Assembly: GCA_964402975.1 (NCBI GenBank)
Contig: CAYOEM010000002.1
Coordinates: forward strand, 156,729-220,728
Source of the DNA: an uncultured Polynucleobacter sp.
Lineage (GTDB): Bacteria; Bdellovibrionota_B; Oligoflexia; Oligoflexales; RGVZ01
Length of the DNA: 64,000 nt
Reading direction: 5' to 3'
Part shown: one piece after another, positions 11,170 through 59,228 of the stretch
Position numbering within the stretch: position 1 is the stretch's first letter
Layout: each line of letters opens with the position of its first letter
Position numbers and translations under genes: made by a program
The notes under the pieces: generated by a model
The model's database searches: none
Seen by the model: the letters and a program-made list of their open reading frames with translations, nothing else
What the model was told of the DNA's origin: nothing

Positions 11170-11766
11170 ATGAATCCTGACAAAAGACCGGTCGTGATGC
11201 TCTGGGCGCTGGTGGCGTCGGCGGCATTCTTTGCTGGAGTCAGTTTCTACATAACCAAAAAAGACGCCCGCGATAAACGAATGGCCAGCATTCCCGTATA
11301 CGGCGAGGTCACCGGTAACTACGCCTTCACAGCCCAAGACGGCCAAGTGATTCAAACAAGTTCCATGCTTGGTCAAACCTGGCTTGTGAATTTCTTTTTC
11401 ACAAGTTGTCATGGCCCTTGCCCTCTGATGACATCGCAAATTGCGTCGGTTATGTCAAAGTTTCCAGAGCTCAAGGCGCTGTCTCTAACGACAGATCCTG
11501 AAACCGACACGGTTGATGTTTTGAAAGCCTACGCTCAAAAATTCAAAGCTGATTCCAACCGGTGGAGTATGGCCCGGGGCGACGAAAAAACTCTTCAAAA
11601 GTTTGGCCAGGACGTGCTTAAGCTTCCCGTCGGCGAAACCCCAGACGCCCACTCCGCCAGGGTGGTACTCATCGACAAAAAAGGCCAAATCCGTGGCTGG
11701 TACGACAGCCAAGAACCCGGCTTCGTCGAAAAACTAATTGGGGACACCCGACTGATTGAGTATTGA
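11170..11766 (+). CDS. SCO1/SenC family copper chaperone (thioredoxin fold)
   Basis: N-terminal TM anchor, FFFTSCHGPCPLM (CxxxC copper site) and HSARVVLIDKKGQIRGWY are present. The ATG directly abuts the typA stop (TAGATG). The last 8 codons and the stop lie inside the 30-bp REP copy. Confidence 0.85.
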   Translation: MNPDKRPVVMLWALVASAAFFAGVSFYITKKDARDKRMASIPVYGEVTGNYAFTAQDGQVIQTSSMLGQTWLVNFFFTSCHGPCPLMTSQIASVMSKFPELKALSLTTDPETDTVDVLKAYAQKFKADSNRWSMARGDEKTLQKFGQDVLKLPVGETPDAHSARVVLIDKKGQIRGWYDSQEPGFVEKLIGDTRLIEY

Positions 11767-11768
11767 TT
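11739..11768 (+). repeat. REP-like 30-mer, copy 1 (TGGGGACACCCGACTGATTGAGTATTGATT)
   Basis: Identical to the copy at 46253..46282 and to the reverse complement of 12537..12566. It lies 10 nt from the stop of the RAYT gene. Confidence 0.9.
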
Positions 11769-11777
11769 AAGCATCGT

Positions 11778-12458
11778 TTAGGGTGCTGATTCGTTGTTGG
11801 ATTTTCTTCCCGGTGTTTTTTTCTCCAAAACCAGCCCAGTCTCGCGCTCCATTTGCCGGATGAATTGGGCCGAGCCAAGTGGTCGCCCGGTTCTTGTTAA
11901 GTTTTGTAGCTTTCTATCAAAATCCAGCGACTGATTCTCGATACCTTCTCGCAAAAATGCTGACCAACTATCTGCTGGCGCAAAGATATCTGCAAATCCA
12001 CTTCGACCGTCAACACCCCCTTGGCAGGCCTGACTCGCGCTGCTCCAAGGATAGGATCTGGGGTCGTCAACTAACCCAGCTCTAACCGGATTAAGCTCGA
12101 TATACCTTGCGACAAGGGGTGCGCCGCTTGGTTCGACGGCACAAGAAAAAAACCGACCTTGCCAAAGATGACCTTGCCAGCTCTGACGATTATTTATGAA
12201 TCTCGTGTAACTTTGGTGAGCGTTGCCCACACTTTCTCGCAGGGAACTTTCAGATGGTGGGACCACCAACAAATGGACATGATTTGGCATCAAACAATAT
12301 GACAGCAACGACACGCCAAAAGCTTCCAAACTACTTTCCATAAATCTTAAATATGATTTGTAGTCTTCATCACAGAAGAATACTTGTTGTCGCCTATTGC
12401 CACGCTGTGTGACATGGTGCGGCAAACCTGGAATGACAATACGTGCTGAGCGCGGCAT
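11778..12458 (-). CDS. rayT: REP-associated tyrosine transposase (RAYT; IS200/IS605-like Y1 HUH transposase, COG1943)
   Basis: Motifs PGLPHHVTQRGN, YCLMPNHVHLLV (HUH motif H-V-H), GHLWQGRFFS, and ARYIELNPVRAGLV...YPWSS (catalytic Tyr region) are present. 226 aa. Confidence 0.85.
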   Translation of the reverse strand: MPRSARIVIPGLPHHVTQRGNRRQQVFFCDEDYKSYLRFMESSLEAFGVSLLSYCLMPNHVHLLVVPPSESSLRESVGNAHQSYTRFINNRQSWQGHLWQGRFFSCAVEPSGAPLVARYIELNPVRAGLVDDPRSYPWSSASQACQGGVDGRSGFADIFAPADSWSAFLREGIENQSLDFDRKLQNLTRTGRPLGSAQFIRQMERETGLVLEKKTPGRKSNNESAP

Positions 12459-12536
12459 GAGGCAGACGCTACGATGAATTTTATTTTAAGAAAATAAAAA
12501 ATTGACTCATTTTTTCAAATGTCTTCGGAGCTGTTC

Positions 12537-12566
12537 AATCAATACTCAATCAGTCGGGTGTCCCCA
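12537..12566 (-). repeat. REP-like 30-mer, copy 2 (inverted)
   Basis: AATCAATACTCAATCAGTCGGGTGTCCCCA is the exact reverse complement of copy 1. It is 78 nt upstream of the RAYT start and contains the stop and last 8 codons of the 270-aa membrane-protein gene. Confidence 0.9.
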
Positions 12567-13351
12567 TTTAGAGGCGTCCGTGCCTGGAGCATGCGAAGTA
12601 AGACGAAGCAGCCGAGGGCGGCTGCTAGGTGTTTGATAGCATGGCCACTGACGATACCGCCGGTCAGAATCCAGATCTGACGGTCGCGGTCTTCCGTGAT
12701 CTTTGCGACCACGTAGCAAACCAACGCTAAAACAATCATGTAGCCGTGAGAGAATTTCGGCGGACAGAACATCATCAAAAAAGGAATGGCGAGTAGGGGG
12801 AAGAACTGCACGAAAGCATACATACGAAGATCTCCCACTCCGTAGCTTTCTGTGACAATCCAGTAAACCGCACTAAATAAACCCATTAATGTTAAAGGCC
12901 ACACTAAAAGCACGTAGGCTCTTTCACTGACGCGCTCTCCGATAATAGCTGCAAAAAGCCCCATAAAACCGACAGTCATCGGCAAACGGTCCCAAAAGAG
13001 CCCAAAATTATCTGGATACCAATGATAATAACCAGATCCAAATGCGGTCAGAAAAACTCCGGTAAAAAACAGCATCCACCCAAGACTTTGCGGAAATCCT
13101 TTGACATCCGTTTGGCCACGTTTAATGAGCAAACGCAGCCCCATCAAACCGACAATCGCAAATGGAACATTCGACAGAACGTTTTGCCAATTGGGAATCA
13201 ATCCGAGGCTAGTCTCATCAGCAAACAGGTGATAACTGGAGTCCTGAGGAATTGCATCCATTGACATCAATACAAATCCGGTAAGACACGCTAAGCCCCC
13301 AAGTAGCCCGAGTCTTTGATGCTCACTGCGCAATTTCCATGAACTGTTCAA
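12539..13351 (-). CDS. Polytopic membrane protein, ceramidase-like (alkaline ceramidase/PAQR-like 7-TM)
   Basis: TTG start with AAGGAG 6 nt upstream. There are about 7-8 TM segments. Motifs SYHLFADE...LIPNWQNVLSNVPF, GSGYYHWYPD, WDRLPM and SGHAIKH (H-x3-H) resemble bacterial ceramidase-domain proteins. Assignment is from memory of the family motifs only. Confidence 0.5.
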   Translation of the reverse strand: MNSSWKLRSEHQRLGLLGGLACLTGFVLMSMDAIPQDSSYHLFADETSLGLIPNWQNVLSNVPFAIVGLMGLRLLIKRGQTDVKGFPQSLGWMLFFTGVFLTAFGSGYYHWYPDNFGLFWDRLPMTVGFMGLFAAIIGERVSERAYVLLVWPLTLMGLFSAVYWIVTESYGVGDLRMYAFVQFFPLLAIPFLMMFCPPKFSHGYMIVLALVCYVVAKITEDRDRQIWILTGGIVSGHAIKHLAAALGCFVLLRMLQARTPLNGDTRLIEY

Positions 13352-26400: not shown

Positions 26401-29400
26401 CACCCGTTTTATCATCAATACAGCCCGTAATCGACGTCGAGCAGGTCGCAAAAATTTTACCAGTACCGGTAGCGGCCGGTGTCACGGTCGTGAATGTACC
26501 CGTTGTTGGGCTGACGTTGGCGCTGAGCGCTCCAGACCCAGACCAAGCCAAACTAGTTGAATTGCCTTTATAGTTACCGTAAGCATCAAACATGTGGGCA
26601 TAGAGATTCAGAGTCTGGTTATTACTGAAGGTAAGAGCTTGTTCACTCATGTTGTTAGCATCACTGAACGTATCAGATTTGGCTATTTTTACATAAGACA
26701 ACGCTGCAGCCGGCTGGGTCGTAAAGTTTAGTGTCTTGCTGAGAGCCGTGCCAAGCTTCGTGCCAGATGTTACCGACCCGCTAACGCTCAATGTTGAAAC
26801 TTCCTGCGGGGTCAGCGAGTAAAGGTTTGAACGGTAAAGTTTAAATGGCGCACCTGACGTGCTGAACACACCATTCGTGAACGTTGCCGACACTGGGTTG
26901 GTCGCTGGCAGACCTGGGCTAAACACGGTTGCCGTTTTGGGGTTGGTAATACTATTACTTGCGCCACTCCAGCTAAATGTCAGAGTGTCTGCAGTCCAGC
27001 TCGTTGCTGGGTTGAGGTAATCGTCAAGAGCAGTCACCGTTACATCAAATCCAGAACCAGCCGCAGGCGTCGTTGAATTAGATGACACCGCATATTGACT
27101 TGGTTTAGCGTGGGTAACGGTTCTATTGCCGCCGGTGTAGGTCCAACGATAGGGGTTTCCTAATTCGCCGCCATTTCCTGCCGTACCGTTGTAGTTGTCT
27201 TTGAACATGAACTGTTGTTGGATTAGGATTTCGGCTTTGTAGAACGTCAGCGTCATATTTCCGGTCGTACCGGAGTCACTAAATGTCAGCGTAGCAGGGT
27301 ACGTTGGTCCTGTGTTGCCAGTTGGTACCCCGGGGAGAACTGGAGCTTGACCGTTCGGTGCAACCCCAACGCCTGTCCAAGAATAAGATTGCTGGTTTAA
27401 CGCAGCGCCAATATTGGTCACAGGGTTACCTGCATTATCTCGCGCTACGATAGAAACCGTGTACGGGAAACCCGCCGTAATAGTCGTGTCGTTAAAGCCA
27501 GAAATAGAGTATCCAGCTACCGAGTCAATGGTTGGAGAGTAGGTATGGTAAACAGATGAATACAGACCGTCGACGGTGGCGCCTACCGCTGCGATGCCGA
27601 TTGATACAGTTTGCGCAGCAGAGCGGCGGAATAGATTGGGTACCGTCGTTTGGTTAACGCCACTCATGGGCACTACCAAGTTATTTTCTGGCCAGGATTC
27701 ACTAAGCACAAGTGGGTGTTGTTCGATCCTACCAACTGCAGCAGCACCGCTAACACGTGTCACCTGCAGTTGAGGGTTGGCAGTGATCGTTTTCGGGTTT
27801 TTATATTGGTCATAGACTTTAATCGTGAGACTATACTTGTCGGCTGCTGATCCCGTCATTGCCACTGGTGAGCCGCTAGTACCCGTACAGTCGCTACTAT
27901 CGCTGGCACGACTACAAGTGAGCTCGTACCAGGTCTGACCACCCACACCCACATCAGTAGTCGACGATGTGTTTGATGTAACCGAAGTCGATTGGTTATC
28001 GGCGACATTGATCTTAAGGCCCGTTTCGACCTTCGTGAGAGTGATTTTTCGACTTGCACTACCACCGCTAAAGCTCAACGCACCAGGGCTAACGCCGGCT
28101 GGAGCCTGACCACCAGGAGCTGTGTGTGTCGAAAGGGCAAGTTTGGTGGGTGTCGCACCGTCGAGCCAGCTAAATGATAATCCGCTGAGGGCTGCATCTG
28201 CGCCCTGGACGTTGGCGCCTGTCGCGTCTTTTGCTACAATACCAACTGTAAATTCGCTACCAGCAGGGACACTGCTTGGTGCAGTAACTACGTATTGGGC
28301 TACAGTCTTTTCACTAGAAACTGCGTAAGCGGCCGAGTTGACAACATCCAACACTGAACCAATACCGCCAGACGACGCATAAGGATAGAACGTAAACCCG
28401 CCCACATCAATTGCAAGGTTACTAAACGTGATATCTGATCCAGTTAAAGTCTGGGTCAAACACGACGTGTCACCGTAGGTTTTACCCGGACAGATCAGCG
28501 TCCGTGTTCTCGGGTTCACCCTGTCGGCCGCATAGGTGGAGAGAGTAATAGATTGGCCGGAAACCGTCACAGAGTTACCATAGAGGTCTTCTGCAAAGAC
28601 GCGAACATCAAACTTGCTGCCGCCGTCTTTGGCGTAAACATTTGGACCAGGTATGCCCCAGGCAGGGACGCTATTAGCTTGTGGCGTGCTCGCCGCATTC
28701 ATGACAATGGGCCGGAAGTGATCAAGACCAAGTGGCGTAACCGCCTGGACTTTAAGACCAGTACCCAAAACAGTAATACCGCCCTGTAGCGTTGCTGTAT
28801 GGGTAATATTCAATAGAGCGGCACTGTTGTAGGTATTGGTAGCGAATAGTTTAGCGTTAAAGGCCGCACAGCCCTGAATGAACGGCAGATTGACAGCACC
28901 AGACGTAAATCTGTTGGCCGTGTAAGAAGCCCCTGTGCCGGTTGAATAGTCGATCGTTAATTGTCCTACGCTCTTAACGTTTAGATCTGAGAACGTCAGA
29001 GGCAGCGACACGGGTGTGCCCACAGTGCCCGCTTGGGTTCTTAAGACGCCATTGACATAGACATCTTGCGTGATGCGTTGACCAGCGCCGTCAACCATAC
29101 AGACGCGCATCGGAATCTCTGTTCCCGCAGGCACCGTGCCGCCTTCGGCAAGGATTCCAGTGCCCGTATGTTCAATAACGAACGATTTCAGAGGCGACGC
29201 GCCCACACTGACAATACCCGTGGTGTCTTGCTTACAGTTCGCATTGAGTGCCGTACAGCTTGCAGTAACAAAGCCTGTACCCACTTCCGTCGCTGTCAGG
29301 GTCGTGACGGCCGCCGAGGTTGGCGTCATTTTATTAGCGAGTTTATCCGTACCAGACCAGGATACAGGTGACGTGTTGCCGCTATAGTTACCAAACGGGT

Positions 29401-32400
29401 CGAATAAATGGGCGTAAAGAGTCCTGCTATCGTTGGTGGCCATGCTAAAGCCCACGCCACTCAAAGACGTAGTCCCGTCAAAAGTCGCACTGGATGCAAT
29501 TTTGACATATCCGGGAGTGGTGCTGACCGTAGGTGTAAATGCTAGGGTGCCGCTCAATACGGGCTGAGCTGTGGCCCTTGGTGTCAGACCTGTGACTTTC
29601 AAGACAGAAGGCTCTGGGGCTTTGTAAAGCACAAATCTCTGGTCAGCTGTTTGAACTGTCGCTGTGTCTGCTGCGAACGTTCTTAGACCTGCCGGCGACA
29701 CATCGGCTGACCTCCCACCTGTGCTTGGATTGCTTGGAGTCGAGGATCCACCGCTGTCCCAAGTAAATGTCAAGAAGTCGCTGGTCCAAGTCTTAGCTGG
29801 GTTCTGGAATTGGTCTCTGACTAGGACTTGTACATCAAACTTCGCACCAGCTTGGACCGTCGTGCTGACGGTGGATAGCACATACTCCGTCGGAGTGGCA
29901 TTAATAACTGTCAGCGCGTTAGTACTGCTAACGCTACGGCGCACACCACTTGGGCCACGACCACCAACTCCGGAGGGCCCAGGAGTGTAGTTATCAACCA
30001 TGTGGAAGTCGGCAATGGTCTCTGCGTTCTTAAAGTTCGCCGATAGGCCTGTGACTTGGCCCCCGCTAAAGGACAGAATGCCGCCTGTGCCGGTCATTGG
30101 TCCAGGCAGTACAGGCGCGTCACCGTTTGGTGCAGCGGTTGGACCTCTCCAGAGATATCTTTGGGCGTTGAGTTGCGTATCGATTCCCTTCGCAACGTTA
30201 CCCGCTTGGTCGAATGCCCGCAGCGTGAAGTTTTGCTGTGCGCCTGCTACTAGCGGGCTCGTCCAACTGTTCAAATTGGGACTAAAATCATAGAAGGTGA
30301 CCATGTCGATATGAGCCTGATAACTATGGAATGTTTTCTGGGACATGCCAACATAGTTAGCCGAGATCGGATCTACGGACATCGATAGCACATGGGCGCC
30401 AGCACGGTGGAAGAGGTTGGAGACTTGCCTTTGGGGTTGGCCGCTCATCGGCACAACCACCTGCTTGTCAGCATCCAATGCATTCTGTAAAGGAACTTGC
30501 TCCAGAACACCAGTATTGAGAGCATCGTTGCCAGACTCCCAGGTGAGCTTAATAGCAGGAGATGTAGCGCCGTCTGACTTAGGGTTCTGGTACTGGTCAA
30601 AAGCCTTGAGTTGAAGATTGAACATGTCGCTAGGAGATGCCCACATAGACGCAGCATTAGATGCAGAGATACCAGTACAATCTGCCCCGCCGGTCACTTT
30701 GGCACATGTAATCGCATAATAGAGAGACGATCCTGGGGAGACCGTAGTCAAGGTGGTGTTGTTGGACGCAATCGATGTTGTTTGATTGTCTTTGACGTTA
30801 ATTTGAAGCCCTGACTCAGCCTTTGTCAGTGTGATGTTGACGTTGGCTACGCCAGCGTTAAATTGTAGCGAGCTCGGCACAATCGGCGCAGTGAGAGCAG
30901 GGGAGATGTGACCCGTGGTAAGTGCCACAGCCGATCCGTCTTGCCACCCAAATGTCAGACCTCGCAGTTCCGTGTCAGCTCCCGTAATCACTTGATCAGC
31001 AGCATCGCGGGCTTCAATCCTGATAGGAGTATCTTGGCCGGCCACTGCGGATGCCGGAGCCGTTAGAGCATAGTTTTTAACCGTTTTAGCCGACGGCACG
31101 GCGGTGAAACTTTGAGAATTCGTCGTAGACCACGACTTCGAACCGTCGGTGGCACTGATAAAGAATTCACCTGGTATATCAATGCCAACCCATGGCACGG
31201 TTGCCGTGGCCGTGTTACTGAGGTTGATTGATAGACACGCTTGATTATTATTGGGAGCAGAGCATTTCAATCGCTGATTTGAGAGCGCTGACATGTCTGA
31301 TCTTTTAACAAGCCCAAGCGTGACCGATTTGGTAACTGGGACAAGGTTACCAAAGGCATCAATTGCCCGAACGTCAATACCAAACCGATTACCCCCGGCA
31401 CTTGCATAACTATTGGTTGATCCAGGATTTGACCAGGCAGGGACCCTTCCAGTGCTCGCGTTGTTAACGTCCAGGGACGATTCCGTTATCGACGTATTAT
31501 AGTGATCAAGAGCCGCAGGTGCGACGGTTCCTAATTTAAGTCCCGATCCACCGATGGCCAGGTTATTTTGCCTAGTATCCGTGTAGGCAAACGATACGAG
31601 AGGCTTACTGAGGCCATACGTACCCGCAGCGTACACTCGTGCGTAGAGATTAACGCAACCATTAGTGAACGTGAGCGAATTGCTGCCAAAAACAAGCGGA
31701 TTAAACTGAGCCCCAGATCCAAGTGAAACAGCCTGGGTCTTTTCTTCCGCATTTTTTAAGATATGGACCGATGACGTTATGCCTAATCCTGTCAACGTGC
31801 CGTTTGGATCTGTCACGGTGACACCGCCGACCACCACGGGGTTTGTGATGACCTGTTGGTTCCTGTCGAGCATACAGACTTTCAGTGCTACTTCGTCACC
31901 GGCAGTGACGTTAGCACCCTCGGCCGGAGACACTTGAGTCACACCAAAAGATTTGAGGGGAGACGCATCGACGCTTATAGTACCCGTGCTGCCGGAAACA
32001 CAGCCCGGTGCGACATCAGCACAGCTAGCCGTAATCACACCGGCGCCTGCAGTGGTTGGAGATAGAGTCGTGGTTAGACTTGGAGTAGGGGCTAATTTAC
32101 CATCTAGCACACTAGATCCTGACCAAGCGATTTGAGGACTCGTTCCTTTGTAGTTACCCCATGGATCAAATAAATGACCAAAGAAAACCTTGGTTTGGTC
32201 ATTGGACATGGTCAAGCCTTTTCCGGTAAAGTCAGACGTAGCATCAAAAGTACTAGCGTCAGCGACTTTCGCGTAGGCGATGGTATCGGATGGCTGTACG
32301 GTAAACGTTAACGACGCCGTCAAGGGTTGACCTGTTTCGGTTTGGGCGCCAGTTCTGGAGCTGGTGACGGTTAGGACGGGTTGTTCCTGGGGAGCAAGTG

Positions 32401-35400
32401 CATTGGCGTTGGAACGATAGAGAGTGAACGGCGATCCCGTTGTTGTAAACGATGCCGTACCAACATCAAACGTGCGTGAACCTGGAGCAAGAACCTCCGC
32501 GGGCTTGATGGCTGCAGTGACGGGATTCGTCACGCTGGGGCTTGCCCCAGACCACGAAAAAGTCAACGTATCGCTTCCGAAGTTTGTGACTAAGTTATTG
32601 TTCTTATCAAAGGCCGTTACCGTCACATTAAATGGGCTGCCGGCTTTGACTGTGGTCGATGGCGCTGACAGGACGAACTTACTTGGAAGCCCCTCAATGA
32701 CCGTAACGGGATTGGTCATTCCACCCTTGCTACTTCGGCGTTTACCGCTTGGATCCTGTCCAACTTGCCCGTTAATGGCGATGACTCCGGAAGGGCCTTT
32801 GACGAAGTTATCAATGACATAAAAGTCGAGGATTTGTTCGGCCTTCGTAAAGGTCACACTCAATGGACCTGTTATACCGTTAACAAATCCTAGATTCGTT
32901 GACGGTGGATAGGAGGGTGCTTGGTTGTTGGGTCCGACGGATCCACCCACCCAAGTGTAGGTTTGTCCGTTCAGTAAGCTGTCGATGCCGGAAAGCACCG
33001 GTCTTGGCCCGGTACCGCAATCGTTAGCCCGAAGTTTGAAGGTTACCGCCTCGCCAACTTTTGGCGTAGTCGGGCTGACATTTTCAAATGAATATCCGCA
33101 AACGGTAGCCAAAGTAGCGCGGTATGTGTGGTAGGTTTTAGTCCGATTACGAGTCCCAGTTGAATCCCCTGGGTCAAATATCTCATAAGCTGCATTACCA
33201 AGACTTCGGCTAAATATATCGTTGAATGTTCTCTGGTCACTGCCACCCATTATAAAAGTAGGTACAGCATTCGGACCATATGTTATGTTTGGCGAACTAA
33301 AAGCTTCGAATGTGCCCGCAACCCCCCCCCTTACTTCGATGTTACTAGAACCAACTGCTTTGTTGCCACAACTATCGACGGTTGTTACTGTGAGGTTAAA
33401 CCGGTTTTCCGGCGAGGCATCCATGACGACTGGATTTGCCGCCGTCCCAGTACAATCTGATCCATCAGACACTTTTGTACAAGTAACGTCATAGCTGACA
33501 GGACTTTGCTTTCTATCTGTGGAGCGCACATTGTTGGACGAGACACTTGGCGCTTGGCTGTCTCGGATATTAAGTTTAAGCACTTCTTTCTTCGTCAGGC
33601 TCCAAAAAGAAAAACCAACCCCGAAACGCGCAACACCCGTAGCGTCAAACACAGGTCTATCGAAACCCGGCACGCAAGCACTGTTGTATCGCGGATTTGA
33701 CGAAATCCCATACGGCGGCAAATGGGTCGAGAGCGGCTGTCCGGATTCATCGATCCAGGTAAAGTTGAGACTAGGGCTATTGAGTAGGTCTTGAATCCCA
33801 GAAATTGGATTACCTTTATTGTCGAGTGCGGACACGGTTACTGATTGGGGCCAATATGGATCATAGATCGCTGGAGCATCCACCCCGTACTCTTTGATAG
33901 TTTTTAACGATGCAGTGGCCGTCAGCATCGCACTGTTTTCAAGGCTTATTCCGCTTTGATCGCTATTTTTTGCAAACACGAAGTAGCTACCAGGAATATC
34001 CATCGCGAGATTGGCGACGGTTACAGGGGCCCCGGCCATTGAGCGCGCGAGACAAACGTTGTCGTTTTGGGGAGCAGCACAGGTCAACTGGAGCGAACTA
34101 GGAGTTTGAGTTCCCTGTAGCTGAAGACCAATCGTAAAGTTACTGTTGTAGGCAATATCGTTACCGTAAACGTCCCTAGCATATACGGTCAGATCAAATC
34201 TATTGCCACCCGTGGTCGTCGCCTTAACATTGACACCCGGACCATTAGGATTTGACAGGGCGGGAACAACTGAAGCACCGGCAAGCACAGGCGCTCCGGC
34301 AATTTTGGTACCGTAGTGGTCGAAATTACCCGGAACAACCGAATTCACTGTAATTCCAGACCCAGAGAAGGGTTTATTGCTTTGCATTGGATCGAGGTAG
34401 GTCATGGTGAGCAAGGGAAGGCTGTTGTATGATCCCTTGGCGTAAATCTGCGCATAAAGATTTGTACAGCCTTGTGTGAATTTGACACTGGCGCCTGCAA
34501 GATCAATTTTTTTAGCCTCAAAATCTGTGCCGCTGCCTGTTGACAGCTGCAATGTCTTGCCCTCTGGATTCGCAATCAAGCCGAAGAGCGAGAACCCCAC
34601 CGGCAATGTGGCCTCAGGATCTGTTACCACTTGACCTTGGTCGTTAAACACCTTGGTAGTGATCACGTTCTTGGCCTCGTCGATCATACAGACTTTGACC
34701 TGGAACTCACTGCCAGCTGGGACGTCTTGGGTTGTCGTAACGTTCTCAAAGCTGAAGGCGTTCAGGGGTTGAGACGCCACCGAGATAGGAGCCGTGATCG
34801 CCGTGAAACCATTCTTGACCGCCTTCAGGGCAAATGTCCCAGGTTTTGTTGCTCGCCAATTAAAGAAACTCACATTGAGCATAGAGCTCAACGCATCGAG
34901 TGGGGACGGATTAGTCGCACCATCAACGTAAAATTGGGCATTTGTGTCACACTCGCCAATGTTACCGTATTGATCTGTCGCGCACGCATTTGTCTTAAAT
35001 GTCCGAGTCAGACTGACGCCCAACGGATAGGTTGCACCCGCTGTTGGGTTGGTGTTGAAGATGGCGTTATATGCCGTCAACGGATCCGCTGAACCTTGTG
35101 CAGGATATCGGATGGCGGCTGGACCCGTTCCGAAGGTAAGGACTGTGCCCGCAGCAAGGCCCGGCTGCGCGTTTACCGGGAACGTCGCTGAGATTGATCT
35201 GGGGGAGTTTTTCTTGCTTTCGCAGATGCTCGCACTTTCAAAGCAGCAATTCAAGGCATCCGCTGCGCACCAAGGAATGACTTTGCTGTCTTTGAGAGTT
35301 AATAGTAAGTTTCGCGATTCATTGGCTTTGACAAGTAAAATATTATCGGCGTCATTGCTCGCAGCAAAGTCTCTGGCTAGGAAATCGGTGAACGGACCAG

Positions 35401-45679: not shown

Positions 45680-46252
45680 GTGCTTAAAATTTTTTACTTC
45701 GAAACGATGAGGTTAACCCGTATGAGTCTGAAATTTGGCGTAGCCCTGACGGCATTGGTTGGCGTTTATGTAACTGGCTGTAGCACGCCAGGCAATGCAC
45801 CAAAGGAAAAAGAAGAAAAGTATGACTTCGTCGGTGGCTACACTGGTGACGACCGTGTGATCGTTAAAGGTGACAGTGCGTCGTTGCACTCAGATCGCAA
45901 TGCCGTGGCTGAGTACACAAAAACTGTCGATACGATCAACGCAGAGCGCCAGAAAGTCGAAAGCGACCTAGCGGGTCTCGCCCTCTGCCGCCGTACGAAA
46001 GCTCGTGAAAAAGGCGTTGAGGTAGAAGAAGGACCGCTGACAATTCCATGTATGAAGAAAGTTGTCACCGACCGTGAAAAAGCCGGCGACGATCTCATGC
46101 AAGTGAACGGCAAACTAGTTCTTCGCAAAAAAGAAGACTTCAAGTCCCGTCTTGACGAAGCCCGTGCATGCCTTGACCAAATGACAAGCGTCCGAGACAA
46201 GTCTCGCGAGAGCTACATGCTCGACGAGTGCGACAAGGTTAAGCGCCAGTAA
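45680..46252 (+). CDS. Hypothetical lipoprotein (coiled-coil-like)
   Basis: ALTALVGVYVTGCSTPG is a lipobox. The mature part is charged and probably helical. The start is uncertain (GTG 45680 with a GAGGGA RBS, or ATG 45707/45722). The TAA stop is immediately followed by REP copy 3. Confidence 0.6.
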   Translation: MLKIFYFETMRLTRMSLKFGVALTALVGVYVTGCSTPGNAPKEKEEKYDFVGGYTGDDRVIVKGDSASLHSDRNAVAEYTKTVDTINAERQKVESDLAGLALCRRTKAREKGVEVEEGPLTIPCMKKVVTDREKAGDDLMQVNGKLVLRKKEDFKSRLDEARACLDQMTSVRDKSRESYMLDECDKVKRQ

Positions 46253-46282
46253 TGGGGACACCCGACTGATTGAGTATTGATT
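46253..46282 (+). repeat. REP-like 30-mer, copy 3 (solitary)
   Basis: TGGGGACACCCGACTGATTGAGTATTGATT is identical to 11739..11768. Similarity to copy 2 extends about 6 more nt (GAGCAG vs GAACAG). Confidence 0.9.
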
Positions 46283-46318
46283 GAGCAGACTCGATTTTCA
46301 GAGCAACGCATCACAAAT

Positions 46319-46358
46319 AAAGAGCCTGTTACCGCACGGTGACAGGCTCTTTTGTTTT
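46319..46358. terminator. Bidirectional rho-independent terminator
   Basis: AAAGAGCCTGTTAC - CGCACG - GTGACAGGCTCTTT forms a 14-bp stem with one G-U pair. It is followed by TGTTTTC on the + strand and TATTTGTG on the - strand. It sits between convergent genes 45680..46252 (+) and 46436..46996 (-). Confidence 0.75.
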
Positions 46359-46435
46359 CGAATCCCCAGAACTAAAATACCACGCGGCTACGGCGTCGCC
46401 ATTACAAGGCGGACGCTCAGTGTCCCCCTTTTATA

Positions 46436-46996
46436 TTATTGAACCTGTCTAAGATCGTAGTCGATGCCGGCTATAAATAACTCCGCTGATATCAGACTGC
46501 TATTTTCAAGATCCCATGTGACCACTAAATAGCGATTCCACCGAAAGCGCTTCTCGCCCAGACCAGGATACTTGGGATTCAGTGGACCGACACAACTGCC
46601 ATCCGGGTCATCCGTTGGCAGGAAGAATTTAACGTATTGTAACGGGGTCGAATCATCGTCCATACCACCGCCACGCATCCGCACGCATGACAATTTATAA
46701 GTTTGCCCCCCCACTATAAGTTCTGACTCAGCCCGAAGTGGCAGGTGATCAAAGAACTCAACATGTGGCCTGCCCGTAAGCGGATCTATATAACTGTTGA
46801 CTAGCGGCGTATGTTCCACTGACTGGACAGGTGTAAACCGCAAGCGCACATCCGTCTTGCCAGTAATCGTATCGAATTCAAAATTGTAATCCGAAGGAAT
46901 ACCAGAGAGGTAATCACGCACCTTAAAGGGCTCCGCCTGCCCCGTAGCACTAAAGAGCCCCAAAATAATCAGCAATGTAAAACAATCCCTTAACAT
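46436..46996 (-). CDS. Hypothetical secreted protein
   Basis: Track ORF is 46436..47023 (TTG). The ATG at 46996 gives MLRDCFTLLIILGLFSATGQAEP, a signal peptide. No family recognised. Confidence 0.6.
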   Translation of the reverse strand: MLRDCFTLLIILGLFSATGQAEPFKVRDYLSGIPSDYNFEFDTITGKTDVRLRFTPVQSVEHTPLVNSYIDPLTGRPHVEFFDHLPLRAESELIVGGQTYKLSCVRMRGGGMDDDSTPLQYVKFFLPTDDPDGSCVGPLNPKYPGLGEKRFRWNRYLVVTWDLENSSLISAELFIAGIDYDLRQVQ

Positions 46997-47579
46997 CGGT
47001 GCAGGCCCCTCCCCGGACGCCAACGGACTTACTTATACCATAAATCAGCTGGCGGTGGTTAAATTTTAATCAAACCACCCTCTCGCGAGAGAAAACGCCT
47101 AAATGTATAATTTTTAGGCACTTAGGTTGGAATATCTCGAAGGACCACTCTAAATTCAATAAAATGAACCTGAATCTGTTCAATATACCACCGTCATCCA
47201 GGTTAAGTATTTGTATTTATTTTTATTTTTACAGATCTAAAACTTGTTCATTATACATCTGTTTTTTGAACGTCAGGGTCGATATATAACCATCTGATAT
47301 AATTTTGATTATTAACTAATCAGCAACGCCGGCAGTTTTGTTGTCGGCGACCTTAAAATAAACGCGCACCGGCATATTCGGTGGTGTTGTTTATTACCCG
47401 AGCCTGGGCTGCCTTAAAAGTAAACATTTAAGCTGCCGTTTGGGAGGAGGGGGGCGCAAAAAAATCGGGACTACCGGTAGTGATCTGAATTTATTGGTTT
47501 TTTATTGGATCTTAATCGGCAAAAAAACATTAAAGTTCACAAGACCCTCGGCCGGACTCTTTGCCTAGGAGGAACCGCC

Positions 47580-47828
47580 ATGTTGAAGTTTATGGTGGAA
47601 GGGTTGGCCTTGGGCGCTCTTGTAGCGTCGGGCTGTAAGCCCTCAGGCTCATCCACAGTAGGGTTTGGTCGTTACTGGGATGCAATTCCAGCGTCAAGGA
47701 CACTTAGGCAGTATTTTGAAGTGATGCCGGAGGCGCACGCTCAGAGTGCAGAAAGGACCAATGAGCTACGAGCTCAATTTAAAAGCCAAACACCGAGGAG
47801 CGCTCCTCCGTTAGTGCCAATTAGGTAA
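47580..47828 (+). CDS. Small hypothetical lipoprotein (82 aa)
   Basis: The ATG at 47580 is preceded by TAGGAGG; the track ORF starts upstream at 47505. MLKFMVEGLALGALVASGCKPSG is a signal peptide plus lipobox. A strong terminator follows. Confidence 0.5.
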   Translation: MLKFMVEGLALGALVASGCKPSGSSTVGFGRYWDAIPASRTLRQYFEVMPEAHAQSAERTNELRAQFKSQTPRSAPPLVPIR

Positions 47829-47839
47829 TTCCCTACACA

Positions 47840-47870
47840 AAAGCCAGCCCCTGAAAGGGCTGGCTTTTCT
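47840..47870. terminator. Bidirectional rho-independent terminator
   Basis: AAAGCCAGCCC - CTGAAA - GGGCTGGCTTT forms a perfect 11-bp stem with T-rich tails on both strands. It lies between convergent genes and marks the 3' end of the eight-gene minus-strand cluster. Confidence 0.85.
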
Positions 47871-47887
47871 CATATTAGTAACCTAAC

Positions 47888-48901
47888 TCACTCCAACCAA
47901 AACATCCGCATGCGGACAAATTCCCGAGTCACAGCGTCTTCAATTGCGCAGACGGAGCCGACCACGTTTTTCTCCAGGCCATCACGCCACGCGGTCTCTG
48001 TTTCGTCGCGTTTTGCCTCGCAAGCTTCCATGGTTTCAAACTTGATTGAGGTCAGTGTCGTTGCCAACGGCTGCATGACCAGTCCGGCAGTATAGATGTG
48101 AATATTGGACGTGTAGGTGGATCCACCACAGAAAAATATCGCCGTTTGCCCATCAGCTCTTGCAAATACTTCGCGCATCTCTTCGCGGTTTTTTTCACAA
48201 GCTTCAAGGCTCTTAAACTGACCTTCGCTGTACTGAACGATGGGAAGCTTATTAGCCGAGTAATACATGGCATGAATGATGGCACGATTTGGGGTCGCCT
48301 TGATGTTGACTTTTGTATACTTGGCGCCATAAGCATCAAGCGTTGTCTTTAAGTCAGTTTTCAGGCTAGCAACGTCTCCGTTGATGCCATTAAAGAAATC
48401 TCTCGCCAGGTGCTTTGGCGAAAGTTTTGGTTTGCCAAACCCATCGATACGCATCGTCCAACCATTATCAGCTTCTTGATCGCGCCGATCGTGAATACAA
48501 TAGGCGATCAATGGTTCAAGGCCAGTTGCTTCTTTGAAGGTAGCCATATCCTCATCATAGTGCGCCGTGCAGTCTTCAGCCGTATCATATAAAGCATTCA
48601 CGTAGGCATACTCATCATAGGTCGTCACTAACTTGGCAGCGACGGGACGTGAGTACTCAATCACGAGATCATAAGTTCTGTAGGGGTTGTACTCACAGCC
48701 ATGAGTTAGCACGGTGGCTTCCGCAAGATCTGCAAACCGATCCACCACCCAGCTCTCGACCTTCTCACACTGCTCTTTGGTCGCGCCGATGCGAGGAATC
48801 GTGTAGGAGTGCACCTCCGCTAGGGCCGCCGACGAAACAAAAAACAAAAATACTGCAAAAACGTTCTTCATAATCATCCTCATCTTGATGTCATTAGTCA
48901 T
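47888..48901 (-). CDS. Hypothetical secreted protein with four C-x22-23-C modules
   Basis: The signal peptide is MKNVFAVFLFFVSSAALA; the start is ATG 48901 (TAATG overlap with the upstream stop) or ATG 48871. Four homologous modules are present: EQCEKVESWVVDRFADLAEATVLTHGC, EDCTAHYDEDMATFKEATGLEPLIAYC, EACEKNREEMREVFARADGQTAIFFC and EACEAKRDETETAWRDGLEKNVVGSVC. Confidence 0.65.
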   Translation of the reverse strand: MTNDIKMRMIMKNVFAVFLFFVSSAALAEVHSYTIPRIGATKEQCEKVESWVVDRFADLAEATVLTHGCEYNPYRTYDLVIEYSRPVAAKLVTTYDEYAYVNALYDTAEDCTAHYDEDMATFKEATGLEPLIAYCIHDRRDQEADNGWTMRIDGFGKPKLSPKHLARDFFNGINGDVASLKTDLKTTLDAYGAKYTKVNIKATPNRAIIHAMYYSANKLPIVQYSEGQFKSLEACEKNREEMREVFARADGQTAIFFCGGSTYTSNIHIYTAGLVMQPLATTLTSIKFETMEACEAKRDETETAWRDGLEKNVVGSVCAIEDAVTREFVRMRMFWLE

Positions 48902-50445: not shown

Positions 50446-50465
50446 CGATTCACGTCCTCCCTTTT

Positions 50466-56151: not shown

Positions 56152-56177
56152 GATCTATTCGCCGCCTTTATCTAAAT

Positions 56178-56960
56178 TTAGAGAAAAACATCCGCAGCCA
56201 GCGTAACGCCGTTCCCCTTCCATTCAGCCTTCTTAGAAGCACCTGAGACATTGAAGACCCCAGCGCTTATTCCACCAAGAAAACTACTTTGCCCCGATAG
56301 AGAATAACGAAGGCCCCCGGAAAACTTTGTAACCGGCGACCAGCCACTTTGTGAAATGCCGTCTAAGTTGCCGGCCACCTGGGTTAACATCATGCCACTA
56401 CCTAAAGAAATCCATGGGGAAACGCCAAATGAGGACTCGCCGTTGCCGGAAGTCCCAAGACGAGCGGTCGCAATAACAGGTAAAACATGAGCTGAAATGT
56501 TATCTCTAAAATCCTGCTTCAATGATCTTTGATAGACCGCCTGAGCACCATCGTAGCCAAGATAAGAAAAATCTAAGCCTGCGCGCGCTCGAATCATCCC
56601 GAACCAAACGGCCCCAGTCGGATGCCCAACCCAAACGGCCGGAGCAATTGCCGAAGATGCGCCACCACTAAGCGGGATCTCGAAATAGTCATTATGAGCT
56701 TTAAAGGTTTTAAATTGATGGAGATCAAACGAAGGTTCAATCGCTAGGATTTGGACCCCAACTTTTTCGATTCGTTCTGATTCAGTTGACGCGCCGTCTT
56801 GATAGGATTTAATGAGATTTGGATCGATACGCATTTCCGGCACTGGTGGCTCTGCCGGCTCTTCTTTCACATTTTGCTTTTTACGGGCAAACGCCTCACC
56901 GGGAAAAGACATCAAAGCAGTAAAAATAGTCAAACCGCTGATTATATTTAATAGTTTCAT
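56178..56960 (-). CDS. Hypothetical secreted protein, possibly outer-membrane beta-barrel
   Basis: MKLLNIISGLTIFTALMSFPGEAFA is a signal peptide. The mature part is Gly/Ser/aromatic-rich with alternating strands. The C-terminus ...VTLAADVFL is hydrophobic but not Phe/Trp-terminal. Confidence 0.45.
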   Translation of the reverse strand: MKLLNIISGLTIFTALMSFPGEAFARKKQNVKEEPAEPPVPEMRIDPNLIKSYQDGASTESERIEKVGVQILAIEPSFDLHQFKTFKAHNDYFEIPLSGGASSAIAPAVWVGHPTGAVWFGMIRARAGLDFSYLGYDGAQAVYQRSLKQDFRDNISAHVLPVIATARLGTSGNGESSFGVSPWISLGSGMMLTQVAGNLDGISQSGWSPVTKFSGGLRYSLSGQSSFLGGISAGVFNVSGASKKAEWKGNGVTLAADVFL

Positions 56961-59091: not shown

Positions 59092-59228
59092 GAAATCCCC
59101 CCAGGTGGTTATAGCTATCCGAGTATGATTTCTAGTCGCCGCGGATGCTGGGGTCAACCTATTTTAAAGGGATTCTATTGAGAACATGTCTCAATAAAAC
59201 TTCCCCAATATTTTCATGAATTTAAAAG

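What the first reader, a model, noticed from the sequence alone, without database searches (positions are those of the whole stretch)
11739..12566. RAYT (REP-associated tyrosine transposase) bracketed by perfect 30-bp inverted repeats
**The gene.** The 226-aa protein has the full COG1943/RayT signature: HHVTQRGN, MPNHVHLLV (the HUH motif), LWQGRFF, and YIELNPVRAGLV...YPWSS.

**The repeats.** It is flanked by TGGGGACACCCGACTGATTGAGTATTGATT at 11739-11768 and by its exact reverse complement at 12537-12566. A third identical solitary copy lies at 46253-46282.

**Interpretation.** A single-copy Y1 transposase between inverted copies of a short dispersed repeat is the defining arrangement of REP/RAYT systems. 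The solitary copy argues for a dispersed REP family rather than simple IS terminal inverted repeats.

**Caveat.** I cannot see a strong hairpin within the 30-mer, only GGGG-ACA-CCC and a TGATTGAG direct duplication. This would therefore be an atypical REP.
Basis: partly seen in the sequence, partly recalled or inferred. Interest (0 to 1): 0.7.

Follow-up and report, generated by a model that had tools for sequence, protein, structure and literature searches.

The report
Tyrosine transposase gene between GGGGACAC-tagged repeats
A single-copy, domesticated-looking tyrosine transposase gene sits between two inverted copies of a short repeat that is also scattered at gene ends in this bacterium and its relatives; this "TIRtron" arrangement was described in 2013, so it is a well-documented new example rather than a new kind of element.

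Summary
The 30-mer occurs exactly three times at the stated coordinates, and the 226-aa ORF between two of the copies is an intact HUH/Y1 enzyme.

It is not a canonical REP system. The protein motifs (NHVH, WQ, YIELNP, SS tail) and the GGGGACAC start of the repeat match the "TIRYT/TIRtron" class (Di Nocera 2013). This class is equated with TnpAY1 subclass 2.1 and Group 1 RAYTs. A single repeat unit has no hairpin. Inverted, feet-outward doublets fold into hairpins with stems of about 22 bp.

About 100 copies were retrieved from related Oligoflexales MAGs and metagenome contigs. Most lie at or within 28 nt of stop codons, and they supply TGA stops in all three frames. Homologues at about 50–65% identity carry their own repeats that share the GGGGACAC foot.

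The gene is intact, syntenic and under purifying selection (dN/dS about 0.1–0.2) in three species. Relatives with an empty SCO1/ceramidase junction show that the unit is an insertion. The "solitary" copy has a decayed inverted partner.

Verdict: a new member of a known but little-studied kind. That the enzyme mobilises the repeats is inferred, not shown. Interest is moderate to low.

The parts
11736..11774 (+). Left terminal inverted repeat (TIR). It has the AAT prefix, the foot TGGGGACAC, the body CCGACTGATTGAGTATTGATT, three variable nt, then CA. It lies 3 nt from the stop codon of the transposase gene.
   Evidence: Exact 30-mer. The limits of the conserved block come from 53 aligned copies. 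It is the arm of a 40-nt inverted repeat.
11778..12458 (-). Gene for a 226-aa HUH/Y1 enzyme (TIRYT, Group 1 RAYT, TnpAY1 subclass 2.1). Key residues are the HUH motif H60-V-H62, W99-Q100, the catalytic Y119 in YIELNP, and S139-S140. A conserved helical tail follows at about 165-207, with the RTGRPLG motif.
   Evidence: Invariant residues in a 47-sequence alignment. AlphaFold2 pLDDT 92.7. The top Foldseek hit and the top profile hit are both 4ER8. dN/dS is about 0.1-0.2 against L042 and L002.
12459..12530 (-). The 72-nt leader between the right TIR and the start codon. It holds the only sigma-70-like site for this gene in the region (TTGAAA, 16 nt, TATTTT, spanning 12518 to 12491).
   Evidence: This is a consensus match only: 1 site was found against 0.8 expected in shuffles, so it is weak evidence.
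12531..12569 (-). Right TIR, the exact reverse complement of the left 30-mer.
11170..11766 (+). SCO1/SenC gene whose last 8 codons and stop (GDTRLIEY*) are supplied by the left TIR. In relatives without the element the natural tail is ...KL(T/S)xDLxxVRQ*.
12539..13351 (-). Ceramidase-family membrane protein gene whose last 8 codons and stop (GDTRLIEY*) are supplied by the right TIR. Homologues end either in TIR-encoded tails (GDTRLIEY or WGHPTD) or in natural ends such as ..VRRPLL*.
46250..46288 (+). Third copy of the repeat. It starts directly after the TAA stop of ORF 45680-46252.
   Evidence: Orthologous copies occur in L012, L058 and L043.
46320..46358 (.). Terminator-like G+C-rich hairpin with a T-run, lying between the third copy and its decayed partner. 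It is conserved in orthologues.
   Evidence: Read directly from the sequence. Conserved in L012 and L058.
46383..46432 (-). Decayed inverted partner of the third copy. The foot AAAAGGGGGACAC is intact and the body has internal deletions. The foot begins 4 nt after the stop of ORF 46436-47023 (-).
   Evidence: Alignment to the full second copies in L058, L071 and L012. Coordinates.

Best explanation
This is a TIRtron. A single-copy gene for a TIR-associated tyrosine transposase sits between two inverted copies of its cognate repeat. Equivalent names for the enzyme are TIRYT, Group 1 RAYT and TnpAY1 subclass 2.1. The repeat is about 36-40 nt long and starts with the foot GGGGACAC.

The same repeat is dispersed through the genome and through related Oligoflexales genomes. 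It occurs as single units and as feet-outward inverted doublets, mostly abutting or overlapping the 3' ends of genes.

**Shown.**
- The enzyme has an intact HUH/Y1 catalytic core and is under purifying selection.
- The gene unit is an insertion relative to the empty SCO1/ceramidase junctions of relatives.
- Homologous enzymes carry their own repeats with the same GGGGACAC foot.
- A single unit has no hairpin, but doublets form stems of about 22 bp.
- The repeat stays identical across species whose synonymous sites have diverged by 0.4-0.65.

**Inferred, by analogy with E. coli TnpA-REP and IS608 TnpA.** The enzyme acts on single-stranded DNA. It recognises the foot at the base of a hairpin made by two inverted units. 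For the gene unit, the pairing would be between the two TIRs. It cleaves and rejoins with Y119, using the HUH-bound metal. In this way it creates, moves or homogenises the repeats.

Because the repeat carries TGA in all three frames, plus an optional TAA in its prefix, insertions that clip the last codons of a gene are tolerated.
For: **The enzyme.**
- Pfam Y1_Tnp, E = 2.6e-16.
- NCBIfam REP_Tyr_transpos scores 68.8 bits against 25.9 bits for IS200.
- The family profile hits 4ER8 (TnpA-REP) at 1.1e-8 and ISDra2 at 1.2e-5.
- The AlphaFold2 model has pLDDT 92.7, and 4ER8 is the top Foldseek match at 2.4e-9.
- H60, H62, W99, Q100, Y119, N123, P124, S139 and S140 are invariant in 47 homologues.
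- The motifs NHVH / WQ / YIELNP / SS and the length match Table 1, subclass 2.1, of PMC6006769.

**The repeat.**
- The foot GGGGACAC fits the TIRYT TIR consensus GGGGWSAS (PMC3733652).
- There are 39 exact 20-mer hits in 4 MAGs and 103 copies in 62 loci overall.
- Neighbouring pairs are 23 feet-outward against 1 feet-inward. This is about 12 independent loci against 1, by my own grouping of orthologous loci, not a tool result.
- Doublets fold with z = -5.6 to -11 as ssDNA. A single unit gives z = -1.1.

**Co-variation with the enzyme.** The homologue at 65% identity is flanked by (TGGGG)ACACCCACCATATTGAGTATTGATT, and the one at 54% by (TGGGG)ACACATAACTGATTGCCTATT. Those at about 50% carry GGGGACAC-footed palindromes.

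**Domestication and insertion.**
- There is one intact gene in L002 and one in L042, both syntenic with the window. dS is 0.43-0.65 and dN is 0.07-0.09.
- Empty sites occur in L072/L073 and L074.
- At orthologous loci the TIRs are 30/30 identical while the flanks are 61-92% identical.
- Of 53 copies, 29 lie within 28 nt of the stop of a co-oriented ORF. ORFs that run into the repeat stop at +17, +21 or +28.
Against: - No activity of any subclass 2.1 enzyme on its TIRs has been published, as far as the held literature shows (one search finds only two papers that use the term). The mobilisation step is therefore pure analogy.
- The protein scores below NCBIfam's curated cut-off for REP-associated transposase (68.8 against 80).
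- No C-terminal HTH domain could be confirmed with Pfam.
- No filled/empty pair was found for a free doublet or a single unit, so recent movement of the small repeats is not shown.
- Many copies sit at orthologous positions in several species. This fits old, static elements kept by selection as well as it fits an active system.
- Loci were found by exact match to part of the repeat, so the apparent conservation is partly an ascertainment effect. Only the second, unascertained copy in two-copy loci is free of it.
- The source genome beyond 64 kb was not available, so copy number in this genome is unknown.
Confidence: 0.75

Rival explanations
1. The repeat copies are host cis-elements. They could be 3'-UTR RNA elements, transcript-end or stability elements, or binding sites for a host protein. 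On this reading they are kept by selection on host function. The transposase gene merely landed between two of them or uses them as a target, and it does not spread or maintain them.
For: - Copies lie at or just after stop codons and are co-oriented with the upstream gene in 30 of 44 assessable cases.
- Orthologous copies are 30/30 identical across species despite flanks at 61-92% identity and dS of 0.4-0.65.
- Several single copies are followed by terminator hairpins.
- REPs in general are reported to lie downstream of coding regions and to act as RNA elements (PMC3733652).
Against: - The repeat sequence changes together with the enzyme in homologues at about 50-65% identity, while the foot and the inverted geometry are kept. 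This is hard to explain if the two are unrelated.
- The strong bias towards feet-outward pairs matches the geometry around the gene.
- There is no Rfam match.
- A single unit has no RNA or DNA fold above background.
- A host role and enzyme-dependent maintenance are not mutually exclusive.
Confidence: 0.12
2. This is an ordinary autonomous insertion sequence: a transposase gene with terminal inverted repeats that copies itself. The short copies would be solo ends or MITE-like deletion derivatives left by past insertions.
For: - The unit has perfect 30-nt terminal inverted repeats and is absent from the same junction in relatives.
- A second, decayed copy of the gene between TIRs exists in one MAG (L021).
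- Group 1 RAYTs are the most IS-like of the RAYT groups, with 6.3% having duplicates and 1.2% on plasmids (PMC5581495).
Against: - Only one intact gene was retrieved per genome among all repeat-bearing loci.
- The gene sits at the same locus in three species and has diverged with them (dS 0.43-0.65, dN/dS 0.1-0.2). This is not the near-identical multi-copy pattern of an active IS.
- Short repeats outnumber the gene by at least 10 to 1.
- There is no target-site duplication.
- Y1 enzymes do not use double-stranded TIRs in the manner of DDE transposases.
Confidence: 0.07
3. This is a canonical REP/RAYT system (a REPtron) in the sense of E. coli or Pseudomonas. Each repeat unit would be a self-folding extragenic palindrome with a GT[AG]G tag, recognised as a hairpin.
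For: - The enzyme's closest solved relative is E. coli TnpA-REP.
- The arrangement of inverted flanking repeats plus dispersed copies is the REPtron layout.
Against: - A single unit does not fold (z = -1.1 and -0.5 on the two strands).
- There is no GT[AG]G tag; the tag is GGGGACAC.
- The protein motifs are those of subclass 2.1, not 2.2 or 2.5.
- The NCBIfam equivalog cut-off is not reached.
Confidence: 0.04

Closest known systems
TIRtron / TIRYT (TIR-associated tyrosine transposase), Di Nocera et al. 2013, BMC Genomics 14:522 (PMC3733652)
   Same: - The RAYT-like gene is flanked by long inverted repeats, not by GTAG hairpins.
- The TIRs fit GGGGWSAS; here the foot is GGGGACAC.
- The TIRs form a moderately abundant dispersed family, with many copies in dimers.
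- The HUH motif and the catalytic Tyr are kept.
   Different: - The host lineage (Oligoflexales, Bdellovibrionota) is not mentioned in that paper.
- This work adds evidence not given there: filled versus empty sites, synteny and dN/dS across species, the feet-outward bias, and stop codons in all three frames.
TnpAY1 subclass 2.1 (Quentin et al. 2018, PMC6006769), equated with Group 1 RAYT (Bertels et al. 2017, PMC5581495)
   Same: - The motifs NHVH, WQ and YIELNP and the SS tail are present. The length is about 226-238 aa, with a conserved C-terminal extension.
- Copy number is low.
- The copy number of the flanking repeat is of the order reported for Group 1 flanking 16-mers (about 12 per replicon).
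   Different: - Quentin et al. found no REP-like secondary structures near 2.1 genes. Here, close homologues are flanked by true GGGGACAC-footed palindromes (L035, L038), and doublets of the window's family fold as long hairpins.
- The Bac_DnaA_C / HTH_23 / HTH_28 similarity reported for part of the subclass was not detected here.
E. coli REPtron: TnpA-REP (RayT/YafM, PDB 4ER8) with REP/BIME
   Same: - It is the best structural and profile match.
- It is a single-copy gene between inverted copies of a dispersed extragenic repeat.
- Its repeats also lie downstream of genes and can supply stop codons.
   Different: - Identity is only 20%, and the E. coli protein (165 aa) lacks the C-terminal tail of about 85 aa.
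- REP units are self-folding palindromes with a 5' GTAG guide. Here the unit is not palindromic and the tag is GGGGACAC.
REPIN-RAYT systems of Pseudomonas (Bertels & Rainey 2011, PMC3116915)
   Same: - Two inverted units form a hairpin-forming doublet that is the likely mobile unit.
- The transposase is single-copy and vertically inherited.
- The system persists for a long time across related species.
   Different: - The enzymes belong to a different group (Group 3 / subclass 2.5).
- REPIN arms are themselves short palindromes.
- REPIN copy numbers are typically in the hundreds.
IS200/IS605 family (IS608, ISDra2 TnpA)
   Same: It has the same HUH/Y1 fold, and the presumed single-strand cleave-and-rejoin chemistry is the same.
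   Different: - The Y motif is Y---NP, not Y---Q.
- There are no subterminal hairpins in direct orientation.
- There is no tnpB.
- There are not multiple identical copies.
- The repeats are inverted.

Membership tests
Class 2 TnpAY1 / RAYT superfamily | HUH motif and catalytic Tyr in a Y---NP motif on an IS200-like Y1 fold | tested here: met
   The motifs are NHVH (H60, H62) and Y119-IEL-N123-P124, invariant in 47 homologues. Pfam Y1_Tnp gives E = 2.6e-16. The model has pLDDT 92.7, with Y1 transposases as the top 30 Foldseek hits.
Class 2 TnpAY1 / RAYT superfamily | Closer to TnpA-REP than to IS200/IS605 transposases | tested here: met
   NCBIfam scores are 68.8 against 25.9 bits. The PDB profile search gives 4er8 at 1.1e-8 and 2xm3 at 1.2e-5. 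Foldseek ranks 4er8 first.
Class 2 TnpAY1 / RAYT superfamily | NCBIfam NF047646 REP_Tyr_transpos equivalog score cut-off (80 bits) | tested here: not met
   The score is 68.8 bits. The model appears centred on the short E. coli-type proteins (146 positions). The protein is a relative, not an equivalog.
Class 2 TnpAY1 / RAYT superfamily | Low copy number, vertical inheritance, housekeeping-like evolution | tested here: met
   One intact gene each was found in L002 and L042, syntenic with the window. dN/dS is about 0.11-0.20. The limit of this test is that only repeat-bearing loci of fragmented MAGs were examined.
TIRYT / TIRtron (= TnpAY1 subclass 2.1 = Group 1 RAYT) | Subclass 2.1 key motifs: NHVH or NH[YF]H; W[EQ]; YIELNP or Y[IV]HLNP; SS in the proximal tail; median length 238 aa | tested here: met
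   The protein has PNHVHLL, LWQGRF, YIELNP and YPWSS in 226 aa. These were compared with Table 1 of PMC6006769. No tree with the authors' reference sequences was built.
TIRYT / TIRtron (= TnpAY1 subclass 2.1 = Group 1 RAYT) | Gene flanked by long terminal inverted repeats whose outer end fits GGGGWSAS | tested here: met
   There are 30-nt perfect (40-nt at 93%) inverted repeats starting T-GGGGACAC. The same foot is found in five homologue loci.
TIRYT / TIRtron (= TnpAY1 subclass 2.1 = Group 1 RAYT) | TIR unit not itself a typical REP hairpin | tested here: met
   The single unit folds at -2.3 kcal/mol, z = -1.1.
TIRYT / TIRtron (= TnpAY1 subclass 2.1 = Group 1 RAYT) | C-terminal helix-turn-helix-like domain (Bac_DnaA_C, HTH_23 or HTH_28 similarity) | tested here: inconclusive
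   There was no Pfam hit for residues 139-226 even at E <= 1. The model shows three confident helices (165-174, 178-190, 197-207), and the tail is conserved family-wide with the RTGRPLG motif. This may correspond to the conserved 2.1.1 extension rather than the DnaA-like one.
Canonical REP (GTAG-tagged repetitive extragenic palindrome) | 5' GT[AG]G tetranucleotide at the foot of a self-complementary 20-40 nt unit | tested here: not met
   There is no GT[AG]G tag; the tag is GGGGACAC. The unit is not self-complementary.
Canonical REP (GTAG-tagged repetitive extragenic palindrome) | High-copy, extragenic, dispersed | tested here: inconclusive
   The copies are extragenic or overlap only the last codons of genes in all 53 copies examined. 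At least 12-20 copies were found per fragmented MAG and 3 in this 64 kb. The true genome count is unknown. It is moderately abundant rather than over 100 copies.
REPIN (REP doublet forming hairpin) | Two inverted units at a short, characteristic spacing that fold into one long hairpin and occur repeatedly | tested here: met
   This is met in related loci. Abutting doublets of 72 nt (0 nt between the units) occur in L003, L007, L014 and L031 (twice). Others have 32-220 nt between the units. Fold z-scores are -5.6 to -11. In the window itself the only small doublet is decayed.
IS200/IS605 insertion sequence | Y---Q motif, subterminal hairpins at both ends in direct orientation, several near-identical copies, often tnpB | tested here: not met
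   The Y motif is YIELNP. The ends are inverted repeats without hairpins. One intact copy was found per genome. No tnpB-sized ORF adjoins the gene.

The most novel reading that the evidence does not exclude
In this lineage the GGGGACAC-footed repeat may no longer be only a passenger. Individual copies have stayed identical at orthologous gene ends across species whose synonymous sites are 40-65% diverged. They supply the stop codon and the last 4-8 residues (GTPD, WGHPTD, GDTRLIEY) of many unrelated proteins.

On this reading they would be maintained by continual enzyme-driven homogenisation or by selection as gene-end modules. The feet-outward doublet, not the single unit, would be the substrate of subclass 2.1 enzymes. 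That would give the first concrete, testable substrate model for the largest RAYT group, whose function is experimentally untouched as far as the held literature shows.
Probability: 0.25. Interest if true: 0.55.

Novelty: new member of a known kind. Interest (0 to 1): 0.35.

Why it matters
Group 1 RAYTs (subclass 2.1, TIRYTs) are the largest and most widespread group of domesticated Y1 transposases. Even so, I found no experimental work on them, and one major survey reported no associated structured repeats.

This locus and its relatives give a clean comparative data set:
- an intact enzyme under purifying selection;
- a cognate repeat whose conserved foot (GGGGACAC) is shared across homologues down to about 50% identity;
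- hairpin-forming doublets in one fixed geometry;
- empty sites that show insertion.

Together these make a defined biochemical test possible: which strand, which structure and which cleavage point. They also illustrate how such repeats remodel the 3' ends of genes. The locus does not reveal a new class of element.

Tried and rejected
- **PDB sequence search with the single protein.** No hit. Only the family profile reached 4ER8.
- **Rfam.** Nothing at gathering threshold on the whole window or on three homologue loci, so there is no known RNA family.
- **Viral contigs.** No copy of the repeat, so there is no sign of a phage vehicle.
- **Pfam on the C-terminal 88 residues at E <= 1.** Nothing.
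- **Covariation between the variable triplet and the 5' flank.** I looked by eye for covariation between positions 31-33 and the 5' flank, as in the guide/target pairing of IS608. No pattern was seen in the copies. This was not tested statistically.
- **IHF-site idea.** I checked the reverse complement of the repeat against WATCAANNNNTTR by eye. It does not fit and was rejected.
- **Empty site for the second copy at the 46253 locus.** Aligning the window with L012 lost homology after the terminator. A three-way MAFFT alignment then suggested a relic at about 47040. I rejected this after nhmmer and a focused alignment placed the real relic at 46383-46432.
- **Promoter in the TIR.** I considered that the TIR supplies the -35 box of the gene's promoter. 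The only consensus match lies in the leader, not in the TIR, and is no more than chance would give.
- **'SLQGPVGPYT' in L032/L034 as a conserved neighbouring gene end.** Rejected. It is non-coding and belongs to another repeated element.
Full report
**1. The observation**

The 30-mer TGGGGACACCCGACTGATTGAGTATTGATT occurs with no mismatch at 11739-11768 (+), 12537-12566 (-) and 46253-46282 (+). No further match appears even with three mismatches, and none appeared in shuffled sequence. A profile built from 96 variants of the repeat finds only these three significant copies in the window.

Between the first two copies lies ORF 11778-12458 (-), 226 aa.

The two flanking genes are convergent. They encode an SCO1/SenC protein (11170-11766, +) and a ceramidase-family membrane protein (12539-13351, -). 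Both read into the repeat and end in the same repeat-encoded tail, GDTRLIEY*.

**2. The enzyme**

Sequence and structure place the protein with TnpA-REP rather than with IS200 transposases.
- Pfam Y1_Tnp gives E = 2.6e-16.
- NCBIfam ranks 'REP-associated tyrosine transposase' (68.8 bits, below its 80-bit cut-off) far above 'IS200/IS605 transposase' (25.9 bits).
- The collection holds at least 8000 homologues of about 220-230 aa.
- In a 47-sequence alignment H60, H62, W99, Q100, Y119, N123, P124, S139 and S140 are invariant. The C-terminal tail (RTGRPLG...LE...G...KPG.K) is conserved too.
- The single sequence finds nothing in the PDB. The family profile hits E. coli TnpA-REP (4ER8) at 1.1e-8, ahead of the ISDra2, IS608 and IS200 transposases.
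- An AlphaFold2 model is confident (pLDDT 92.7, pTM 0.88). Its best Foldseek match is again 4ER8 at 2.4e-9, followed by IS200-family transposases.
- The tail forms three helices, but Pfam does not recognise it.

**3. The published category**

Quentin et al. 2018 (PMC6006769) divide the Y1 family into subclasses. Subclass 2.1 is defined by NHVH, W[EQ], YIELNP, an SS motif in the tail and a median length of 238 aa. This protein has exactly these features.

They equate 2.1 with Bertels' Group 1 RAYTs; 291 of 292 Group 1 sequences fall in subclass 2.1. They also equate it, probably, with the TIRYTs of Di Nocera et al. 2013 (PMC3733652). TIRYTs are RAYT-like genes flanked by long terminal inverted repeats instead of GTAG hairpins. 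Those repeats share the consensus GGGGWSAS, and some form 'moderately abundant' dispersed families, often arranged in dimers.

The window's repeat starts T-GGGGACAC, an exact fit. The finding is therefore a TIRtron. Only those two papers use the term TIRYT in the held library, so the class is named but hardly studied.

**4. The repeat family**

A scan of one genome per species for the 20-mer GGGGACACCCGACTGATTGA found 39 exact matches in 31 loci. They belong to four MAGs, labelled Oligoflexales, 'Deltaproteobacteria' or 'bacterium'. Oligoflexales belongs to Bdellovibrionota.

A metagenome scan used a pattern that leaves the foot and a 5-nt block free (ACACCC-N5-ATTGAGTATTGATT). It found 31 more loci. 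In all, 103 copies lie in 62 loci. Viral contigs hold none.

Aligning 53 copies shows a conserved block from about -3 to +36: (A)A(A/T) TGGGGACACCCGACTGATTG[A/G][G/C]TATTGATT nnn CA. C34 is invariant.

A single unit does not fold better than shuffled sequence (z = -1.1 and -0.5 on the two strands). Inverted doublets fold as ssDNA into hairpins whose stems are about 22 perfect base pairs, with z = -5.6 to -11.

Among neighbouring copies no more than 1300 nt apart, 23 pairs have their feet outward, the same geometry as around the gene. One pair has its feet inward. Collapsing orthologous loci gives about 12 independent cases against 1; this grouping is my own, not a tool result.

**5. Position relative to genes**

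No copy lies inside a gene. Of 53 copies, 29 begin within 28 nt of the stop codon of a co-oriented ORF.

The repeat carries TGA at positions 15-17, 19-21 and 26-28, that is, in all three frames. ORFs that run into it end at +17 (..GTPD*), +21 (..WGHPTD*) or +28 (..GDTRLIEY*). Di Nocera et al. report the same behaviour for GTAG REPs, which often supply the TAG stop of flanking ORFs. This feature is therefore also precedented.

**6. The 'solitary' copy**

The copy at 46253 starts directly after the TAA of ORF 45680-46252 and is followed by a terminator-like hairpin. Orthologous loci (L012, L058, L071) carry a second, inverted copy 141-173 nt downstream.

The window has a decayed remnant of that partner at about 46383-46432 (-). 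The foot AAAAGGGGGACAC is intact and the body has internal deletions. The foot begins 4 nt after the stop of the convergent ORF 46436-47023. The copy is thus half of an old doublet between convergent genes.

**7. Link between enzyme and repeat**

More distant homologues of the enzyme are flanked by their own inverted repeats. These keep the foot and diverge in the body.

| Homologue | Identity | Flanking repeat |
|---|---|---|
| P0004 | 65% | (TGGGG)ACACCCACCATATTGAGTATTGATT |
| P0009 | 54% | (TGGGG)ACACATAACTGATTGCCTATT |
| P0016 | 53% | clusters of the 27-nt palindrome AATGGGGACACCCGACTGTCCCCATT |
| P0035 | 50% | TATGGGGACACCATACTTAATT dimers |
| P0043 | 51% | 40-nt palindromes GGGGACACAATAC...GTATTGTGTCCCC |

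The foot GGGGACAC is therefore the family-wide constant, analogous to GTAG in canonical REPs. Some homologues do carry genuine hairpins. This qualifies the statement in PMC6006769 that no REP-like structures accompany subclass 2.1 genes.

**8. Domesticated gene, inserted unit**

Among all repeat-bearing loci only L002 and L042 hold an intact orthologue. L021 holds a decayed C-terminal remnant, and L008 is cut by a contig end.

The window, L002 and L042 share the order TypA-SCO1-gene-ceramidase. Pairwise values are dS 0.43-0.65 and dN 0.06-0.09, which shows purifying selection and co-divergence with the host.

Relatives whose ceramidase protein is 72-73% identical keep the order TypA-SCO1-ceramidase-SBP. 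In them the two stop codons are only 3 or 31 nt apart, and there is no gene and no repeat (L072/L073 and L074).

Alignments place the junctions at ...GAAAAACT|AATTGGGGAC on the SCO1 side and at the natural stop on the ceramidase side. On the SCO1 side the natural tail ..DLxxVRQ* has been replaced. About 30 nt of the target is missing, and there is no target-site duplication. The unit is therefore an insertion relative to the ancestral junction.

**9. Conservation**

At orthologous loci in different species the 30-mer is 30/30 identical, while the flanks are 61-92% identical. There is a caveat: loci were found by exact match to part of the repeat.

The cleaner test uses the second copy in two-copy loci, which was not needed to find the locus. 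It is also identical, for example in the TIR pairs of L002 and L042. Given raw synonymous differences of 33-43%, chance identity of 30 nt is of the order of 1e-5 to 1e-7. This is my own calculation.

The repeats are therefore either constrained or homogenised.

**10. Mechanism**

The following points are shown:
- the catalytic residues are intact;
- the enzyme and the repeat co-vary;
- the doublets have a fixed geometry;
- the doublets form hairpins;
- the gene unit is an insertion.

The following is inferred from E. coli TnpA-REP and IS608. The enzyme works on single-stranded DNA and recognises the foot at the base of a hairpin formed by two inverted units. It cleaves and rejoins through Y119, so generating or maintaining the family.

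The main rival is that the copies are host gene-end elements independent of the enzyme. That rival explains the conservation and placement. It does not explain the co-variation or the geometry. The two are not exclusive.

**11. Verdict**

This is a well-supported new member of a known but little-studied kind. It is not a canonical REP system, not an ordinary IS, and not a new class. Interest is moderate to low. Its value is as a clean comparative entry point to the untested biochemistry of Group 1 RAYTs.

Noticed in passing
L032:10715-10760, L033/L046, L034:60-130, L060 (near 2359), L071:1-72, L075:4284-4433: A conserved sequence of at least 100 nt ending ...GTTGCAAGGACCGGTGGGACCATAT abuts ACACCC of a TIR and replaces the TGGGG foot in at least four independent loci. 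One of them, L071, is the orthologue of the window's 46253 copy. In L075 the opposite end (TGGGGACA|ATGGAATGGTCCCACCGGT...) follows a TIR foot and leads into an ORF starting MRSISVLGIDLAKK. Contigs break within 50-170 nt each time. This looks like a multi-copy IS that inserts at one fixed point inside the TIR. The N-terminus resembles IS110-family transposases, which are known to target REPs; this is from memory and untested. The element is absent from the window.
   Followed up: partly
L021:1096-2299: In the same MAG as L002, a second inverted TIR pair encloses only a decayed C-terminal remnant of the transposase (a 75-aa ORF). It also holds a DUF6036 nucleotidyltransferase (171 aa) and a CopG/BrnA-antitoxin-like protein (113 aa), which look like a toxin-antitoxin pair riding between TIRs.
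   Followed up: partly
L004, L006, L017, L020, L045, L048, L051-L053, L058, L067, L069 (61-82 nt downstream of the TIR start): Fifteen TIR copies are followed at a near-constant distance by ...ATGTCCGCCCTGAAAGGCCT-ACTCCGACGTCGGAG, which contains the perfect 14-nt palindrome CTCCGACGTCGGAG. Beyond it the loci diverge. This is a composite element of about 100 nt with a TIR at one end and a small palindrome at the other. The palindrome itself finds no match in the window. The decayed relic at 46383-46432 seems to retain a degraded version.
   Followed up: partly
window 46353-59230: Synteny with L058 (about 87% identity) breaks about 65 nt after the third repeat copy, resumes briefly at 47212-47348, and then jumps to 59230. 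The window holds about 12 kb where L058 has about 3 kb. ORF 46436-47023 (-), 195 aa, has no Pfam match and has no counterpart in L058 or L012.
   Followed up: no
window 28585-33493: Several direct repeats recur at a spacing of exactly 2775 nt (28642/31417 and 30672/33447). Related ones lie at 26262/31845/34659. This suggests tandemly duplicated segments of one or more very large genes.
   Followed up: no
L011:6990, L023:936 and 1910, L024:1005: These TIR copies (variant ...GATTGACTATTGATT) are each followed by the same conserved sequence of about 75 nt. That sequence is the 3' end of a convergent ORF of about 300 aa. Two such copies lie 970 nt apart in L023, so a paralogous gene family seems to have duplicated together with its adjacent TIR.
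   Followed up: no
L015:3527-3681, L025:2819-2973, L061:5375-5427, L065:888-1047: At one orthologous site between two large convergent genes the repeat architecture differs between species. It is a tight 53-nt hairpin in L061, a doublet with an 88-nt spacer in L065, and a three-part arrangement in L015 and L025. This is evidence of internal rearrangement or deletion between arms.
   Followed up: partly
contig of P0002/P0125 (JGI 3300059473; no DNA available): In this contig the transposase is 86% identical to the window's, but the adjacent ceramidase protein is only 71% identical and also ends in GDTRLIEY. Two genomes at a similar ceramidase distance have empty sites. The history at this locus (ancient presence with loss, or repeated gain) is unresolved.
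   Followed up: no
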